Assembly: GCA_963823165.1 (NCBI GenBank)
Contig: CAWGKV010000040.1
Location: forward strand, 246,877 to 310,876
Origin: an uncultured Alphaproteobacteria bacterium
GTDB lineage: Bacteria > Pseudomonadota > Alphaproteobacteria > Rhizobiales > Beijerinckiaceae
DNA: 64,000 nucleotides
Direction: 5' to 3'
The translations under genes and the position numbers were made by a program. The notes beneath the pieces are model-generated. The model was not told the DNA's origin and searched no databases. It was given only the letters and a program-made list of their open reading frames with translations. Positions 8,866 through 12,744 of this stretch are shown here, one piece after another (position 1 is the first letter of the stretch; the number at the start of each line of letters is the position of its first letter).

Positions 8866-9093
8866 GAGAGGAGCAAGGGTGTTCGCCGGGCGGAGCGCCG
8901 CGGGCTTTGGCTCCCGCCTGCGAGCCGGCGGAATGTCTTTGAACGCAGCGGGAAGGCGGACGGCCGCCCGGGGAAGGAAACCGCGCGCCCGGGGGAAGCC
9001 AAAGGAACGCCAGGGGAAGCAAAAGGAACGCCAGGGGAAGCCAGATCCGTTCACCATTCTCGCCTTTTCAGTGACTTACACCAGATGTGGAGA
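8866..9093. repeat. Dispersed ~225-bp repeat, copy 1, with internal 21-bp tandem units
   Basis: About 85% identical by manual alignment to 53989-54213. Contains GGGGAAGCMAAAGGAACGCCA twice plus a partial third unit (8992-9042). Confidence 0.9.
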
Positions 9094-9261
9094 TGTGGCT
9101 TCGGCGGTTGCGCGTTTCAAAAATTCTTCATCGACCCCGTGCGGTCGATCAAGGTCAATAATCAACATCTCAGCGCCGTCCTTCCCTTCGTGCGCAATAC
9201 TAAAGGCTGCCACGAAGCCATCGCCGCGCGAGGTCGGGGTGGGCGCCAGGGGAGCGGACAA
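9076..9261 (-). CDS. Putative 61-aa SOS-controlled ORF ending inside the repeat (...SPHLV)
   Basis: GGAG-N7-TTG start, downstream of a TTGACA/LexA-box promoter. No recognisable domain. Confidence 0.3.
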   Translation of the reverse strand: MSAPLAPTPTSRGDGFVAAFSIAHEGKDGAEMLIIDLDRPHGVDEEFLKRATAEATSPHLV

Positions 9262-9287
9262 GGGAGGTCTCCGGAGCGGGTATCTTA

Positions 9288-9323
9288 GAACAAACAATGA
9301 ACATAGCTGGACCTCTTTGTCAA
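9288..9323 (-). promoter_or_regulatory. Sigma70-type promoter overlapped by an alphaproteobacterial LexA box
   Basis: GTTC-ATTGTTT-GTTC on the minus strand (9302-9288), an exact GTTC-N7-GTTC. Perfect -35 TTGACA at 9323-9318, with CATTGT 18 nt downstream. Confidence 0.7.
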
Positions 9324-9492
9324 CAGATTTTCTTCGGCCTTGTGCCCGCGCCTTTCCGCGGGCGGGCCGGGGATACGCTACTCAGCGCCAAAGACTGCCC
9401 TTTTCGCGGACCCCCGCCGCGGCCATTCGGGATGCGATATTATAGTTGACAAACCCAGCGCAAGGTGTATGGTCAAGTGAGGGATTTGGGTT

Positions 9493-10473
9493 ATGGCCAG
9501 CGTTCTCAATGAGGCATACTTTCAGGACGAACGAGTGGCTTTCAACGAGCTAGAGCGTATCGTTTGGCCGAATGATCCCGTTTGCCCATTCTGCGGCAAT
9601 ATGGGGCGCATGTATAAATTGGAGGGTGTCAGGACCAAGCCTAGCAAGAAAAACCCGGAAGGGATCGTCAGGCATGGGTTACGCAAGTGCGGTGAATGCC
9701 GGAAACAATTTACCGTTCGCAAAGGAACAATATTTGAGGACAGCCCAATTCCTTTGCATCTTTGGTTCCAAGCCTTTTACCTAATGTGTTCCAGCAAAAA
9801 GGGTATCAGCGCCAATCAGTTGCATCGCACGCTTGGCGTGACCCTGACGACGGGATGGTTCATAGGACATCGTCTGCGCGAAGCCATGCGCTCCGGCGAT
9901 CTGTCCCCCATGGGCGGGGCTGGGGGCATCGTCGAGATTGACGAGACCTACATCGGCAGGAAGGAAGGGCGCGATGTTGAGCGTGGAACTGGCCACAAAA
10001 ATGCAGTTGTAACGCTTGTCGAGCGCGGTGGCTCCGCGCGCTCTTTCCCTGTTGATCGCGCTACGCGCTCCGCAGTCGTCCCCATCGTCAGCGCGAATAT
10101 TGATTGCAAATCCCCGTGATGACAGATGAGTCCAATGTCTACACGAAGCTTGGAGAGCAGCTCGCGGCGGTTCGCGGCGCATGGTAAGGTCGATCACAGC
10201 CGCGATGAATACGCCTATACTGACCGCGCGACCGGCGTTAGCATTGGCGTTAACACAGTCGAGGGGTACTATTCCATCTTCAAACGCGGTATGAAGGGCG
10301 TTTACCAGCATTGCAAGGAGAAGCACCTTCACCGATATCTGGCTGAGTTCGATTTCCGTTACAGTAACCGGATCAAGTTGGGCGTGGACGATGAAATGCG
10401 GACGGAGCGTGCGCTTGCTGGCGTCGTTGGGAAGAGGTTGACCTATCGGGGCTCGTCAGCGGCGCGTGTGTGA
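9493..10473 (+). pseudogene. IS1595-family DDE transposase, interrupted
   Basis: Zn-ribbon CPFCG...CGECRKQFTVRKGTIFE, VEIDETY, VMTDE (in a shifted frame at 10116-10160), NTVEGYYSIFKRG and YLAEFDFRY. In-frame TGA TGA at 10117-10122. Confidence 0.93.
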
Positions 10474-11216
10474 GCGACATGCGCATCGGTACGAAATTAA
10501 CATGGATACTGGACGGGCGGCGCCCGAACCAAATTCCCTTGGCTCGCCTTGCAGAATATATGCAGAATCTTGCTGTGCTGTTTGGCGAGATAGACAATGT
10601 GCACTTCGAACAGGTTTTTGAAGGCTCTACTTGCCTTGAAGCGAAGATCAGGCCCGGAATTCCATCTCAGAGAGTGCAGGAAAGGGTAGCTGCGGTGCGC
10701 CAAAAGCGCGCGCCTGCGGACGCTATGAGGGCATATCACCGTCTTGATGAGATGGTACATGAAGATAGGGGACCAGCTAGGCTATCTTGCGGGCCGGCTA
10801 TAATACTTAGGTTCCCAGGTAAGGTTATAGAAAAATACAAACCAGCCTCTATCTTAGAGAGAGGAACAGTTGTTGGGCGTCTTTATTTTCTTATGGAGGA
10901 ATCTCCAGGGCAGCTAAGAGTGCGGATTCGGCCTAGAACGGGAAATGCATACGTCCCATGCACGGCGGACGGCAGCATTGGCCGCCATTTGAGAAACTAT
11001 TTCATGGACGCTGTACGTGCATCTGGTCGAGGAATGTGGGAGAGGATGGAAAGCGGAGAATGGTCTTGCCGTTCTCTCCATATTGATGATGTGCAGCCCG
11101 TCAAAGACAGTTCCCTCCGGGAGGCGATAAATGCCTTGAGGAACGTCGAAGCGCATTGGTCCGACGATCCGCTAGCAGAGTGGCTTGAAATTGAAGAAAG
11201 GAGCGGGGCCGCGTGA
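10470..11216 (+). CDS. Hypothetical 248-aa passenger protein, candidate partner or antitoxin of the PIN protein
   Basis: GTGA overlap with the transposase stop. N-terminal IPLARLAEYMQNLAVLFG...VHFEQVFEGS segment and a beta-rich C-terminal half. Confidence 0.85.
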   Translation: MSDMRIGTKLTWILDGRRPNQIPLARLAEYMQNLAVLFGEIDNVHFEQVFEGSTCLEAKIRPGIPSQRVQERVAAVRQKRAPADAMRAYHRLDEMVHEDRGPARLSCGPAIILRFPGKVIEKYKPASILERGTVVGRLYFLMEESPGQLRVRIRPRTGNAYVPCTADGSIGRHLRNYFMDAVRASGRGMWERMESGEWSCRSLHIDDVQPVKDSSLREAINALRNVEAHWSDDPLAEWLEIEERSGAA

Positions 11217-11806
11217 TCGCGGCGATGGATAATACGTTCCTGACTGTGCTGCTAAATCCTAACGCGGCACCGAGACCGAATCCAGCAACGCAGCAGCCGG
11301 TTCCGCATTGTCGCGAGCGCATTGAGGCGCTGATTGACGATCTTTCTCGCACGCAAGCTACTCTGATTGTACCAACTACTGCGCTCGCGGAAGCGCTCTG
11401 TGGTGATCAAGCTATAGAGGAGTACTTTTCCACCTTGCAGCAATTCTCGGCGATAGAGTTGGCTCCGTTTGATGGGAAAGCAGCTTATGAGTTTGCGCGT
11501 ATAATCCGAGAGGCAAAGGCAAAGGGAGACAAGCGTTCTGGACAGATTGGGGACTGGCAGAACGTGAAGATGGATCGAACGATTGTTGCCACCGCCATCT
11601 CTCGCTCAGCTTCCATCCTTTTTTCCGACGACGGCCCTCAGAAGAATTTTGCCATTGCCGCTGGATTGTCTGTTAAATCTACCTGGGACTTGGATTTGCC
11701 ACCAGAATACGCGCAACACCATATGAGCGAGATTGGCGATGCATCATGGCCGACTCAGAAAAAACCCCCCAAGTCGAGCGATTCAGAGCAACCGCTCGCG
11801 CGCTAG
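11213..11806 (+). CDS. PIN-domain (VapC-like) ribonuclease
   Basis: Four acidic positions in PIN order: MDNTFL, PTTALAE, KMDRTIVATA, LFSDD. GTGA overlap with the upstream gene. Confidence 0.8.
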   Translation: MIAAMDNTFLTVLLNPNAAPRPNPATQQPVPHCRERIEALIDDLSRTQATLIVPTTALAEALCGDQAIEEYFSTLQQFSAIELAPFDGKAAYEFARIIREAKAKGDKRSGQIGDWQNVKMDRTIVATAISRSASILFSDDGPQKNFAIAAGLSVKSTWDLDLPPEYAQHHMSEIGDASWPTQKKPPKSSDSEQPLAR

Positions 11807-11961
11807 GCTGCGATGAGGATAAGGAAAAGTTTGAGGCCGCGCTAAAGAAAATCGCAGCAAAAATCGCAGCACATAAACCCCGCAAGGACGGCGCAAATAG
11901 CTCCAAACGGAGAACTACCAAAAAATTGAAGAAAACAACTGAGGCTAGCCAACAGCAATAG
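11746..11961 (+). CDS. Small basic 71-aa protein (QVERF...ARALGCDED motif)
   Basis: Compact helical core QVERFRATARALGCDEDKEKFEAALKKIA followed by a Lys-rich tail. I recall similar ORFs beside IS1595 transposases, but this is unverified. Confidence 0.6.
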   Translation: MADSEKTPQVERFRATARALGCDEDKEKFEAALKKIAAKIAAHKPRKDGANSSKRRTTKKLKKTTEASQQQ

Positions 11962-12570
11962 CTATAGGTCGGGAACAATAACGAGACGCCCAGAAAAACG
12001 ACGCATGTCGTAAGTTCTTTTGACACTATCCTGCTTTAGGCCATGAAGCCAACTATACGTTGTCTCCATTTCAATTCTGGTTGACTCAGTTGCTGGCATA
12101 GACCCTAGTAAAAACCTTAAGCCGCAATCTTGTGTGGCGATGTCTGATGGGCGCAGAATTGATATTATTGGGTTGCCTTGGAGAGGGGCATTACCGCTGT
12201 AGACGTAGTTTCCGCGTGACCTTATCTTTCTACCTTCGTTCCAGATTGTGCAGGTTGTTACCAAATCGGTCAAAGTCCATGAGCCTGAATTACCCAATGT
12301 AAATAATGTTTCGGATAAGTTGTTGGCGCTGAACGCCGCAATCTGTATCGTCAACCGTGGCTGAAAGGTGTGAGAGAAATTGAAGATGAAAAGAAATGCC
12401 GCCACATAAAACCAGACATTGCGGAACGTTCGATCAATCGACAGCGTCGCTCTTAGGAAGCTTGCTAGGAATGCTTGCAGGAAAACTCGTTGGCGTCGTG
12501 GCGGCTCTTGCGACGGTTGTTCTGGCGTTTGCGGTGGTGTGGTTTCTGATTCATCATCTGTAGCAGACAT
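11962..12570 (-). CDS. Hypothetical 202-aa passenger protein with one predicted TM helix
   Basis: Acidic, Pro-rich N-terminus, hydrophobic VWFYVAAFLFIFNF and a beta-rich remainder. AT-rich codons; a promoter lies in the right TIR. Confidence 0.7.
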   Translation of the reverse strand: MSATDDESETTPPQTPEQPSQEPPRRQRVFLQAFLASFLRATLSIDRTFRNVWFYVAAFLFIFNFSHTFQPRLTIQIAAFSANNLSETLFTLGNSGSWTLTDLVTTCTIWNEGRKIRSRGNYVYSGNAPLQGNPIISILRPSDIATQDCGLRFLLGSMPATESTRIEMETTYSWLHGLKQDSVKRTYDMRRFSGRLVIVPDL

Positions 12571-12744
12571 GGCAATCGCACCGGAGTTCCCGCCATGTCA
12601 ACGCACCGCTTTGACGAGACGCCAAAGCGGGCATCAGCCTACCCCCAGATCGTGGTTTGTCAACTAGAATATCGCCATTCGGGATGAAACCGCTTCGCCC
12701 TTGTTGGGCACCAGATCTTGTAGGTGCTACTCGGGAAGGCAAGC

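What the first reader, a model, noticed from the sequence alone, without database searches (positions are those of the whole stretch)
10470..11806. Coupled unknown protein plus PIN nuclease: candidate toxin-antitoxin or anti-phage system on the IS
Seen: transposase, 248-aa ORF and 197-aa PIN ORF are chained by two GTGA start/stop overlaps, and the PIN protein retains all four acidic catalytic-type positions. The partner is far larger than VapB antitoxins and shows no RHH/AbrB/Phd signature; it has a helical N-terminus (IPLARLAEYM...VHF...EGS) and a beta-rich C-terminal half. Known: PIN RNases act as TA toxins and abortive-infection effectors, and defence genes accumulate in IS/transposon cargo. 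Inference: a non-canonical sensor/antitoxin plus RNase pair that either addicts the host to the element or defends against phage. This is the best candidate here for an undescribed system.
Basis: partly seen in the sequence, partly recalled or inferred. Interest (0 to 1): 0.85.

Follow-up and report, generated by a model that had tools for sequence, protein, structure and literature searches.

The report
Mobile PIN nuclease pair on IS
A conserved, uncharacterised two-gene unit (an OB-fold protein plus a VapC-like PIN nuclease) rides here inside a 3.2-kb IS1595-family insertion sequence and elsewhere sits next to phage repressor genes, so it is most likely a toxin-antitoxin-like or anti-phage module that no experiment has yet tested.

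Summary
A (10479-11216, 245 aa from its ATG) and B (11213-11806, 197 aa) overlap by GTGA. B is a VapC-fold PIN nuclease; its acidic residues D6, E60, D121 and D140 are kept in 96-100% of 114 relatives. The claimed overlap between transposase and A is probably not real, because homologues start at the ATG six bases after the transposase stop. The transposase in this copy carries two frameshifts.

The pair lies inside a transporter IS of the IS1595 family: 22-bp inverted repeats, an 8-bp target duplication, and an empty site in soil metagenomes.

A and B are almost always adjacent: 83 of 86 loci found through A, and 119 of 119 found through B. About half of the loci that could be assessed have the IS1595 transposase directly upstream. 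Related elements have perfect repeats and 8-bp duplications.

In phage contigs the pair usually follows a CI or Mnt repressor. This includes P22-like prophages in 33 of 5,426 complete E. coli genomes.

A is a new family with an α/β domain and an OB fold. It matches nothing in Pfam, NCBIfam or PADLOC. DefensePredictor lists the E. coli B orthologue as a predicted defence gene, not validated.

Best reading: a non-canonical toxin-antitoxin or abortive-infection module. I rate it a new variant of a known kind.

The parts
9425..9432 (.). Left copy of the 8-bp target-site duplication ATTCGGGA. The boundary is ambiguous by +/-2 nt, because CATTCGGGAT(G) is repeated on both sides.
   Evidence: Sequence read. 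The same 8-bp pattern is seen in relatives L001, L007, L010, L012, L013, L033 and L078. Empty-site contigs in soil metagenomes join position 9434 directly to AAACCGCTTCGC (= 12687 onward).
9434..9455 (+). Left terminal inverted repeat (IRL), GCGATATTATAGTTGACAAACC.
   Evidence: 21/22 complementary to 12654-12675, with 0 matches expected by chance. It has the same consensus (GGCGATATTATACTTGACAAACC) as the ends of related elements.
9446..9473 (+). Promoter-like site inside and just after IRL (TTGACA, 16 nt, TATGGT), 20 nt upstream of the transposase ATG. It is the likely promoter of a tnp-A-B-C operon.
   Evidence: 10/12 consensus match. This is a consensus match only. Operon status is inferred from the 5-nt gap and the 4-nt and 61-nt overlaps between the genes.
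9493..10473 (+). IS1595-family transposase (Zn-ribbon plus DDE_Tnp_IS1595). It is disrupted by two compensating frameshifts near 10113 and 10170. This is either a pseudogene or an assembly error.
   Evidence: Pfam and NCBIfam matches. tblastn to the intact 318-aa L007 transposase gives 63% identity with in-frame stops at 10117-10122. Three-frame reading. Public reads do not cover 10066-10176.
10479..11216 (+). Gene A: 245-aa partner protein of a new family. Predicted layout: N-terminal alpha/beta domain (about 1-112), OB-fold barrel (about 124-207), C-terminal helices (213-241).
   Evidence: Homologues (1,422 representatives at 50% identity, all about 245 aa, no fusions). AF2 pLDDT 82.8. Foldseek finds SSB, PriB and LysRS-N OB folds and viral SSBs plus a DUF6575 protein. 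No Pfam, NCBIfam or PADLOC match. PHROG 19868, E=4e-38.
11213..11806 (+). Gene B: 197-aa VapC-like PIN nuclease. Its start overlaps the stop of A (GTGA).
   Evidence: PHROG 21691, E=5e-23.
11746..11961 (+). Gene C: 71-aa charged small ORF (motif ERFxxxARxLGxDED) that overlaps the 3' end of B. It is conserved only in the IS-borne copies of the module.
   Evidence: Present in 13 of 18 loci with an intact transposase against 0 of 19 without one in metagenomes (Fisher 5.5e-6).
11962..12570 (-). Gene D: 202-aa orphan ORF inside the IS, in the variable cargo position. L001 carries a DUF4145 gene there.
   Evidence: no family. No relative in any fetched locus. Local GC about 46%. L001 layout.
12654..12675 (-). 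Right terminal inverted repeat (IRR).
12677..12684 (.). Right copy of the 8-bp target-site duplication ATTCGGGA.

Best explanation
A and B form a self-contained two-gene module of the toxin-antitoxin or abortive-infection kind, and it hitch-hikes on mobile elements. B is an active PIN endonuclease and acts as the effector. By analogy with VapC it most likely cuts tRNA or rRNA. A is its obligatory partner, made first from the same transcript and translationally coupled to B. A most likely keeps B inactive. Its OB fold binds single-stranded nucleic acid and may sense a disturbance such as phage replication or loss of the element. The module has no promoter or operator region of its own and uses the promoter of its carrier: the IRL promoter of the IS here, and the repressor operon in prophages. 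For the carrier, the module either makes loss costly (addiction) or pays its way by excluding other phages. In this window it arrived as cargo of a 3.24-kb IS1595-family transporter IS (tnp-A-B-C plus D). The IS transposase has since been damaged, while A and B remain intact.

Shown: gene anatomy; the PIN fold and conserved catalytic residues; the OB fold (predicted model); strict A-B linkage; IS boundaries and insertion polymorphism; location next to phage repressors.

Inferred: RNase activity, toxicity, inhibition by A, the trigger, and any defence phenotype.
For: PIN identity and conserved active site.

New partner with an OB fold.

Strict linkage: B follows A in 83 of 86 loci found through A. 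A precedes B in 52 of 52 viral loci and 67 of 67 assessable metagenome loci. The A and B identity matrices co-vary (r=0.71).

Independence from any one carrier. The IS1595 transposase is the only recurrent neighbour in genomes but is absent in about half the loci. It is present in only 2 of 52 viral loci.

Phage context. In phages and prophages the pair lies directly downstream of CI-like, short-CI or Mnt repressors, on the same strand. Examples are phage Ostro, Pacha_bin_1 and E. coli P22-like prophages.

Decay pattern fits toxin-antitoxin logic. B is broken or absent beside an intact A in 10 of 86 loci. A is frameshifted beside an intact B in only 2-3 of about 116 and is never absent (Fisher p=0.005-0.017).

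The module outlives the transposase. In the genome set, 12 loci, this window among them, have only transposase remnants, and B is intact in 10 of them. The NJ tree shows such losses scattered over the family.

The E. coli orthologue of B (WP_001263856.1) is listed as 'Predicted novel defense gene' in the DefensePredictor supplement.

Precedents: toxin-antitoxin pairs as integral cargo of Tn3 transposons (PMC7157771), and PIN toxins paired with many unrelated antitoxin folds (PMC10440598).
Against: There is no experimental evidence of toxicity, neutralisation or protection for any member.

A is three times the size of a usual antitoxin. It has no recognisable DNA-binding antitoxin domain.

The C-terminal helices of A, which might plug the PIN site, are only moderately conserved across the wider family (L213 87%, the others lower).

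A validated two-gene PIN defence system, DS-5, is explicitly not a toxin-antitoxin pair. An obligate partner therefore need not be an inhibitor.

The decay asymmetry compares samples from different collections and is only moderately significant.

No loci were scored for enrichment in defence islands.
Confidence: 0.55

Rival explanations
1. A and B are two subunits of one nuclease or defence effector, not a toxin-antitoxin pair. A is a positive factor: its OB fold recruits or recognises the RNA or single-stranded DNA target (for example a tRNA anticodon arm, or phage ssDNA) and licenses the PIN active site. B alone would be inactive and harmless.
For: The OB-fold matches include the anticodon-binding domains of LysRS and AsnRS as well as SSBs. 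The most conserved residues of A lie in the N-terminal domain and on OB strands 4-5 (Y27, H42, D96, R180, W187, W195) rather than in a tail that could block B. DS-5 is a validated two-gene PIN defence system in which deleting the partner abolishes defence without releasing toxicity. PIN nucleases often carry RNA-binding domains in cis (a PIN-KH protein, 3i8o, appears). Strict co-occurrence fits this reading equally well.
Against: Under simple co-dependence both genes should decay at similar rates once selection is lost. In fact B is lost about 5 times more often than A although A is longer. The order partner-first with a 4-nt overlap is the classic antitoxin-toxin arrangement.
Confidence: 0.27
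2. A and B are accessory transposition proteins of this IS1595 lineage. A would be a single-strand-binding protein and B a flap- or end-processing nuclease, and together they would help or regulate transposition.
For: The IS1595 transposase is the only recurrent neighbour in genomes (38 loci). tnp-A-B(-C) is bounded by perfect IRs and 8-bp duplications in many phyla. Transposase-linked loci are spread over the whole A tree. The OB fold resembles SSBs.
Against: About half of all loci have no transposase. In viral contigs 50 of 52 loci lack it and instead sit next to phage repressors. A-to-transposase co-divergence is weak (r=0.15 against 0.71 for A-B). B resembles VapC RNases, not FEN or flap nucleases. 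Ordinary IS1595 elements transpose with the transposase alone (established knowledge; IS1595 passenger genes are treated as cargo in the literature cited). A and B remain intact where the transposase is dead.
Confidence: 0.05
3. The pair serves the carrier's own gene regulation. It would be an RNA-binding protein plus RNase that tunes phage or IS transcripts (lysogeny maintenance, transposase mRNA turnover), with no role in addiction or defence.
For: It is co-transcribed with repressors or the transposase. RNA-binding-type OB fold.
Against: The same module works with unrelated carriers: CI, Mnt and DinI contexts, an IS, plasmids, and bare chromosome. A regulator of specific transcripts would be unlikely to transfer so freely. 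Many chromosomal copies have no carrier at all.
Confidence: 0.08

Closest known systems
VapBC type II toxin-antitoxin systems (e.g. Rickettsia felis VapBC2, Shigella VapBC/MvpAT)
   Same: The downstream gene is a VapC-fold PIN protein with the conserved acidic residues. The partner gene lies upstream and overlaps it by 4 nt. It is carried on mobile elements.
   Different: The partner is 245 aa, with a new alpha/beta domain plus an OB fold instead of an RHH, AbrB, Phd or HTH domain of 70-90 aa. The module has no promoter or operator region of its own. B has a conserved insert (GDKRSG...W.VK.DR) and matches the NCBIfam VapC models only at E=0.017-0.19. Toxicity has not been tested.
Transporter IS (tIS) of the IS1595 family (Siguier, Gagnevin and Chandler 2009, as cited in PMC4611040; TnCentral preprint 10.1101/2021.05.26.445724)
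   Same: An IS1595-type transposase with passenger genes between the terminal IRs, and an 8-bp target duplication. This is what the literature calls a tIS.
   Different: I could not consult ISfinder. I therefore cannot say whether this particular element, or its A-B-C cargo, is registered or has been discussed. From memory only, the 'ISNwi1 with passenger genes' subgroup (1.75-4.75 kb, 8-bp repeats) is the likely home. This was not tested.
Toxin-antitoxin pairs embedded in Tn3-family transposons (Lima-Mendez et al. 2020, PMC7157771)
   Same: A toxin-type module sits next to the transposition gene as regular cargo of a transposon family.
   Different: Different transposon family. The Tn3 pairs are canonical type II families, whereas here the partner is new. 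Here the module also lives independently in phages.
DS-5 of DefensePredictor (PMC13092281): a PIN protein plus a DUF5830/AcrIF4-like partner
   Same: A two-gene E. coli system with a PIN nuclease whose catalytic residues are needed for defence and whose partner is also required.
   Different: Different proteins: the partner is 166 aa and the PIN protein 376 aa (WP_021513008.1 / WP_021513009.1). The E. coli pair related to A-B has 239 and 182 aa. No DUF5830 match was found for A or its E. coli and Pseudomonas relatives. DS-5 is reported not to behave as a toxin-antitoxin pair.
Lysogen-expressed exclusion genes next to phage repressors (lambda cI-rexAB; P22 sieA beside mnt) - comparison from my own knowledge
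   Same: Same genomic position and orientation relative to the CI or Mnt repressor.
   Different: No sequence or fold relationship. RexAB and SieA are membrane-associated systems, whereas A and B are soluble nucleic-acid-binding and nuclease proteins.

Membership tests
PIN-domain nuclease superfamily (VapC-like) | Rossmann-like alpha/beta/alpha PIN fold | tested here: met
   AF2 model of B has pLDDT 80.5 and pTM 0.73. Foldseek top hits are VapC structures: 3zvk_B E=3.9e-7, TM 0.73 on the target; Shigella, Salmonella and M. tuberculosis VapCs follow.
PIN-domain nuclease superfamily (VapC-like) | Four conserved acidic active-site residues | tested here: met
   D6 96%, E60 100%, D121 100%, D140 100% in 114 unique sequences. 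Also seen in alignment A2.
PIN-domain nuclease superfamily (VapC-like) | Significant match to the Pfam PIN model | tested here: inconclusive
   The window protein scores E=1.1e-3, 19.9 bits, below the 23.6-bit cutoff. The E. coli relative passes (E=4.1e-10, 40.8 bits). Six of the 83 relatives listed carry a precomputed PF01850 hit.
VapBC type II toxin-antitoxin system | Small upstream antitoxin with an RHH, AbrB, Phd/YefM or HTH DNA-binding domain | tested here: not met
   A is 245 aa with no Pfam or NCBIfam match. Its predicted fold is an alpha/beta domain plus an OB barrel.
VapBC type II toxin-antitoxin system | Bicistronic, partner first, translationally coupled | tested here: met
   GTGA overlap at 11213-11216. 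Gaps from -1 to a few tens of nt in relatives.
VapBC type II toxin-antitoxin system | Own autoregulated promoter and operator upstream of the antitoxin | tested here: inconclusive
   Only 5 nt separate the transposase stop from the start of A here. The gap is about 20 nt in L001, 49 nt after mnt in E. coli and 103 nt after cI in phage Ostro. The only good promoter-like site lies in IRL. No experiment is available.
VapBC type II toxin-antitoxin system | Toxin arrests growth and the antitoxin neutralises it by direct binding | not testable with these tools
   Indirect support only: B is never found without A, and decay is asymmetric.
IS1595-family transporter IS (tIS) | Transposase with an N-terminal Zn-ribbon and a DDE_Tnp_IS1595 domain | tested here: met
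   PF12760 E=1.3e-10; PF12762 E=2.4e-6 and 1.6e-12; NF033547 E=5e-28.
IS1595-family transporter IS (tIS) | Terminal inverted repeats enclosing the transposase and the passenger genes | tested here: met
   9434-9455 and 12654-12675, 21/22 complementary, with none expected by chance. Relatives have perfect IRs of 23-28 bp.
IS1595-family transporter IS (tIS) | 8-bp target-site duplication and evidence of insertion | tested here: met
   ATTCGGGA on both sides. 8-bp duplications in at least 7 related elements. Empty-site contigs in two soil metagenomes.
IS1595-family transporter IS (tIS) | Intact transposase (autonomous element) | tested here: not met
   Two frameshifts and two in-frame stops in this copy. 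Relatives such as L001, L007 and L010 have an intact transposase. A sequencing error cannot be excluded, because no reads cover the site.
Named anti-phage defence systems (PADLOC-DB v2.0.0) | Match of either protein to a model of a known or candidate system | tested here: not met
   No family at E<=1 for A, B, C or D. None for the E. coli and Pseudomonas-phage relatives. Among 30 B relatives there were only two isolated weak hits (E=0.0035 and 0.03).
DS-5 (DefensePredictor) | PIN protein of about 376 aa plus a 166-aa partner with DUF5830/AcrIF4-like regions | tested here: not met
   Sizes and accessions differ. No DUF5830 match for A or its relatives. A direct sequence comparison was not possible, because the full DS-5 sequences were not retrieved.

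The most novel reading that the evidence does not exclude
A-B is a new family of abortive-infection immunity. The OB-fold protein A senses a single-stranded nucleic acid signal of infection, such as phage ssDNA or SSB-coated replication intermediates, or a tRNA state. It then releases or licenses the PIN RNase B. An entire lineage of IS1595 insertion sequences has adopted this immune module as standard cargo, together with the small protein C. That would make these IS 'paying passengers', retained because they immunise their host even after the transposase dies.
Probability: 0.3. Interest if true: 0.75.

Novelty: new variant of a known kind. Interest (0 to 1): 0.6.

Why it matters
If the reading is right, three things follow.

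- It adds a new partner fold (an α/β domain plus an OB barrel) to the set of proteins that control PIN toxins.
- It is a clear case of an insertion-sequence lineage that carries a toxin or immunity module across several phyla. So far this is documented mainly for Tn3 transposons, plasmids and prophages. It could explain why such IS copies persist after their transposase decays.
- It can be tested directly. A near-identical pair sits in P22-like prophages of 33 complete E. coli genomes, and intact elements with perfect ends exist in cultured bacteria (Labrenzia, Palleronia, Acidocella).

If the pair proves to be an ordinary addiction module, the finding is still a useful annotation. It covers about 1,400 clusters at 50% identity of 'hypothetical proteins', plus PHROGs 19868 and 21691.

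Tried and rejected
- **Canonical VapBC.** Rejected because the partner lacks every antitoxin-type domain.
- **Sequence search of A against PDB.** Neither the single sequence nor the profile gave a hit. B gave only noise for the single sequence and E of about 0.4 to VapC for the profile.
- **Identity with DefensePredictor DS-5.** Rejected on protein sizes and accession numbers.
- **Link of A to DUF6575.** DUF6575 is a domain found in one PD system of Vassallo et al. 2022. The only evidence is a low-TM Foldseek hit to a viral DUF6575 protein (E=5.5e-8, TM 0.34). There is no Pfam or PADLOC support. I could not find which PD system carries the domain. It remains a weak lead.
- **Other conserved neighbours.** None found apart from the IS1595 transposase in genomes and phage repressors in viral contigs.
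- **Inverted repeats around transposase-less copies.** None convincing. Those copies are not obviously non-autonomous IS derivatives.
- **Checking the transposase frameshifts in public reads.** No coverage of 10066-10176.
- **Siguier et al. 2009 (IS1595 family paper).** Not held in the library. ISfinder is not available.
- **A-to-transposase co-divergence.** Weak (r=0.15, Mantel p about 0.05). I do not claim strict co-evolution of cargo and transposase.
Full report
**1. What is at the coordinates**

The + strand carries four genes in a row.
- A split IS1595-family transposase at 9493-10119 and 10126-10473. It matches PF12760, PF12762 and NF033547.
- ORF A at 10470/10479-11216.
- ORF B at 11213-11806.
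- A small ORF C at 11746-11961.

A 202-aa ORF D lies on the minus strand at 11962-12570. The stop of A and the start of B overlap as GTGA at 11213-11216.

All 31 first-round homologues begin at the 'MR' that corresponds to the ATG at 10479. The collection's own gene call for this protein is 245 aa.

The transposase matches an intact 318-aa relative at 63% identity. It carries two compensating frameshifts near 10113 and 10170. These put the conserved MTDE segment out of frame and leave TGA TGA in frame. Public reads do not cover that stretch, so I cannot say whether the lesion is real or an assembly error.

**2. The pair is cargo of a transporter IS**

The region 9000-12700 has about 50% GC, against about 67% in the flanks. 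A 22-nt inverted repeat, GCGATATT[A/C]TAGTTGACAAACC, lies at 9434-9455 and 12654-12675. It occurs nowhere else in the window, and none is expected by chance. ATTCGGGA directly abuts both ends.

Contigs from two soil metagenomes match the left flank up to 9434. They then continue with AAACCGCTTCGC, the sequence that follows the right repeat at 12687. That is the empty site, so the whole unit of about 3.24 kb (tnp, A, B, C, D) inserted as one piece.

IRL contains a good promoter-like site: TTGACA, 16 nt, TATGGT, ending 20 nt before the transposase ATG. With gaps of 5 nt or less and overlapping genes, a tnp-A-B-C operon is the simplest reading. This is an inference.

Elements with an IS1595 transposase and passenger genes between the IRs are what the literature calls tIS (TnCentral preprint; Siguier et al. 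2009 as cited in PMC4611040).

**3. The same element and the same pair elsewhere**

*Contexts of close and distant homologues.* Homologues of A and B on longer contigs show the same order, IS1595 tnp then A then B, often followed by a small ORF. This holds in soil metagenomes, a Beijerinckiaceae MAG, Labrenzia, Palleronia and Acidobacteriota, down to 33% identity.

*Loci found through A.* A scan of one genome per species found 153 loci encoding an A relative. They come from Alpha-, Beta- and Gammaproteobacteria, Acidobacteriota, Gemmatimonadota, Latescibacterota and Binatia. I scanned all fetched loci with HMMs built from the A, B and transposase alignments.
- B follows A in 83 of 86 assessable loci: 76 intact and 7 broken.
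- The transposase directly precedes A in 25 loci, is reduced to remnants in 12, and is absent in 40.
- The IS1595 transposase is the only recurrent neighbour.

*Ends of related elements.* Where the transposase is present, the unit is bounded by perfect or near-perfect IRs of 23-28 bp with the same consensus (GGCGATATTATACTTGACAAACC). Clean 8-bp duplications flank it: TTTTTCAA, CAAACGCT, CTTAAATT, AAAAGAAA, AATGTTTG, CTTGTTTT and TTTTCTTT. Element sizes are 2.5-3.5 kb. These are recently mobile elements.

*Loci found through B.* A is directly upstream in 52 of 52 viral contigs and in 67 of 67 assessable metagenome contigs. In the metagenome set A is intact in 64, and three loci (two unique elements) carry a single frameshift.

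*Co-variation and family size.* Pairwise identities of A and B co-vary (r=0.71). A and the transposase barely do (r=0.15). Transposase-linked loci are scattered over the whole A tree, next to transposase-free clades such as Oxalobacteraceae, Bryobacteraceae and Kaistia. A profile search of 1.84 billion representatives found 1,422 A-family clusters at 50% identity. All are about 245 aa, and none is fused to another domain.

**4. A second habitat: phage immunity regions**

Only 2 of the 52 viral loci carry the transposase. In about 30 of them the gene just upstream, on the same strand, is a phage regulatory or moron-region gene:
- a CI-like repressor (HTH plus peptidase S24),
- a short CI-type HTH protein,
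- an Mnt repressor (Arc plus Repressor_Mnt), or
- a DinI-like gene.

A divergent Cro- or Arc-like gene often lies beyond.

In the deposited genomes of Pseudomonas phages Ostro and Pacha_bin_1, the pair follows the CI repressor. In Ostro it is annotated 'hypothetical protein' plus 'nuclease'; in Pacha_bin_1 both genes are 'hypothetical protein'.

A near-identical copy (99.6-99.8% in the rows listed) of one such locus is present in 33 of 5,426 complete E. coli genomes. There it sits in a P22-like prophage between mnt and the DNA-transfer genes. Its annotation is hypothetical protein WP_000749484.1 plus PIN domain-containing protein WP_001263856.1.

From general knowledge, the position after the repressor is where lambda rexAB and P22 sieA lie. 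It is a typical site of lysogen-expressed exclusion genes. Plasmid copies also exist, all annotated hypothetical: Methylobacterium, Cupriavidus, Sinorhizobium and Pleomorphomonas.

**5. What the proteins are**

*B.*
- The AF2 model has pLDDT 80.5.
- The best PDB matches are VapC toxins from Rickettsia, Shigella, Salmonella, the F plasmid and M. tuberculosis. HARP RNase P and Nmd4 follow at weaker scores.
- Over 114 unique sequences, D6, E60, D121 and D140 are kept in 96-100%.
- Sequence-level matches to Pfam PIN and to the NCBIfam VapC models are weak for the window protein. The E. coli relative passes the Pfam cutoff.

*A.*
- It matches nothing in Pfam, NCBIfam, PADLOC or PDB by sequence. Its only hit is PHROG 19868, of unknown function.
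- The AF2 model has pLDDT 82.8 but pTM 0.49, so the domain arrangement is uncertain. It shows an N-terminal α/β domain (about 1-112), a five-stranded barrel with the helix between strands 3 and 4 that marks an OB fold (about 124-207), and two C-terminal helices.
- Foldseek against PDB finds bacterial SSBs, PriB, RPA-type OB folds and the anticodon-binding OB of LysRS and AsnRS (E about 1e-4, TM about 0.5-0.6 on the target).
- Foldseek against viral models finds phage SSBs. It also finds a longer but low-TM match to a DUF6575 protein.
- The most conserved residues over 126 unique sequences are Y27, D96, G133 and W195 (100%) and L24, G36, H42, F112, G183 and W187 (at least 97%).

**6. Is it already named?**

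PADLOC-DB v2 has no model that matches A, B, C or D. The same is true for the E. coli and Pseudomonas-phage relatives.

The DefensePredictor study (PMC13092281) validated DS-5, a two-gene PIN system. Its proteins are a 166-aa partner and a 376-aa PIN protein (WP_021513008.1 / WP_021513009.1), so it is not this pair.

The same study's supplementary prediction table lists WP_001263856.1, the E. coli orthologue of B, as 'Predicted novel defense gene', with mean log-odds 6.8. It does not appear among the cloned or validated systems in the text held. No paper in the library mentions either accession.

The module has therefore been flagged computationally but remains uncharacterised.

**7. Mechanism**

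The most economical reading is a toxin-antitoxin-like or abortive-infection module. B is the PIN endonuclease effector and A is its obligatory, co-translated partner. Four points support this beyond the anatomy.
- B is never found without A.
- B is lost beside an intact A in 10 of 86 loci. The reverse is seen in 2-3 of about 116, and then only as single frameshifts, although A is the longer gene (Fisher p=0.005-0.017). The caveat is that the two samples come from different collections.
- A and B stay intact where the transposase has decayed, as in this window and ten other loci.
- The carriers and positions are those typical of addiction and exclusion genes (section 4).

Two precedents exist. 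Toxin-antitoxin pairs are integral cargo of Tn3 transposons (PMC7157771). PIN toxins are paired with many unrelated antitoxin folds (PMC10440598).

Whether A inhibits B (antitoxin) or licenses it (sensor or specificity subunit, as in DS-5) is open. The OB fold, the conserved residues in the body of A rather than in its tail, and the tRNA-synthetase-type OB matches keep the second reading alive.

A role as transposition accessory proteins is unlikely. Half of the loci, and nearly all phage loci, lack the transposase.

**8. Verdict**

- The thing is a new partner family for a PIN toxin or effector, carried by an IS1595 tIS lineage and by temperate phages. I rate it a new variant of a known kind.
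- It is of moderate to good interest, mainly because it can be tested directly in E. coli and because an IS lineage carries it as standard cargo.

Noticed in passing
window 11746-11961 (+); also L001 9268-9459, L007 9211-9432, L012 6522-6668, L013 6528-6665, L102 2636-2803: Small ORF C (45-76 aa) has the motif ERFxxxARxLGxDEDxxxFE followed by a Lys/Pro-rich tail. It starts at or inside the 3' end of B. It is found only in IS-borne copies: 13 of 18 transposase-intact metagenome loci against 0 of 19 transposase-free loci, and none of the 50 transposase-free phage copies. It may be a third component specific to the IS form, or an IS function. All 41 database relatives are annotated hypothetical or unnamed.
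   Followed up: partly
window 11962-12570 (-): ORF D (202 aa, local GC about 46%, with a hydrophobic stretch FYVAAFLFIFNF) lies inside the IS between C and IRR. It matches no family and has no relative in any fetched locus. Related elements carry other genes in this slot: a DUF4145 protein in L001 and an unknown 217-aa protein in L102. L007 has nothing there. This looks like a variable cargo position.
   Followed up: partly
window 10100-10180: The transposase has a -1 and a +1 frameshift about 55 nt apart. The first is next to a CCCC run. Together they take the conserved MTDE (DDE) segment out of frame. This could be a real pseudogene or a long-read assembly error. Public reads do not cover the spot.
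   Followed up: partly
window 9400-9434 joined to 12687 onward (runs X1, X2): Soil-metagenome contigs carry the uninterrupted target site. One matches the right flank at 12/12 bases and the other at 27/30. The IS insertion is therefore polymorphic among related soil bacteria.
   Followed up: yes
L155 (E. coli NZ_CP195804.1 3196401-3197963) and L145-L152: E. coli P22-like prophages carry mnt followed by an A homologue (WP_000749484.1) and a B homologue (WP_001263856.1). The locus is found in 33 of 5,426 complete genomes at 99% identity or more. This is a convenient native system for experiments.
   Followed up: yes
L079 5686-7348: In a Longimicrobiales MAG, gene B is split (profile positions 2-65 and 68-176) by an inserted IS1595-type transposase gene on the opposite strand. 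The effector gene appears to have been knocked out by another IS of the same family.
   Followed up: no
L007 9750-10688 and 11755-11883: Directly downstream of the tIS in the Beijerinckiaceae MAG lie a second IS1595 transposase without A-B cargo, a DUF3800 gene and a second C-like ORF. This looks like a local pile-up of related elements.
   Followed up: no
window 8975-9045 and 9046-9433: Just outside IRL there is a short tandem repeat (GGGGAAGC[C/A]AAAGGAACGCCAG, two to three copies). A stretch of intermediate GC (57-59%) follows, with no recognised gene. It may be the remnant of an older insertion at the same intergenic site.
   Followed up: no
L032 4820-7484: In a Binataceae MAG, a 31/33 inverted repeat encloses A-B followed by an IS1595 transposase on the opposite strand. 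This is a different internal arrangement of the same kind of element.
   Followed up: no
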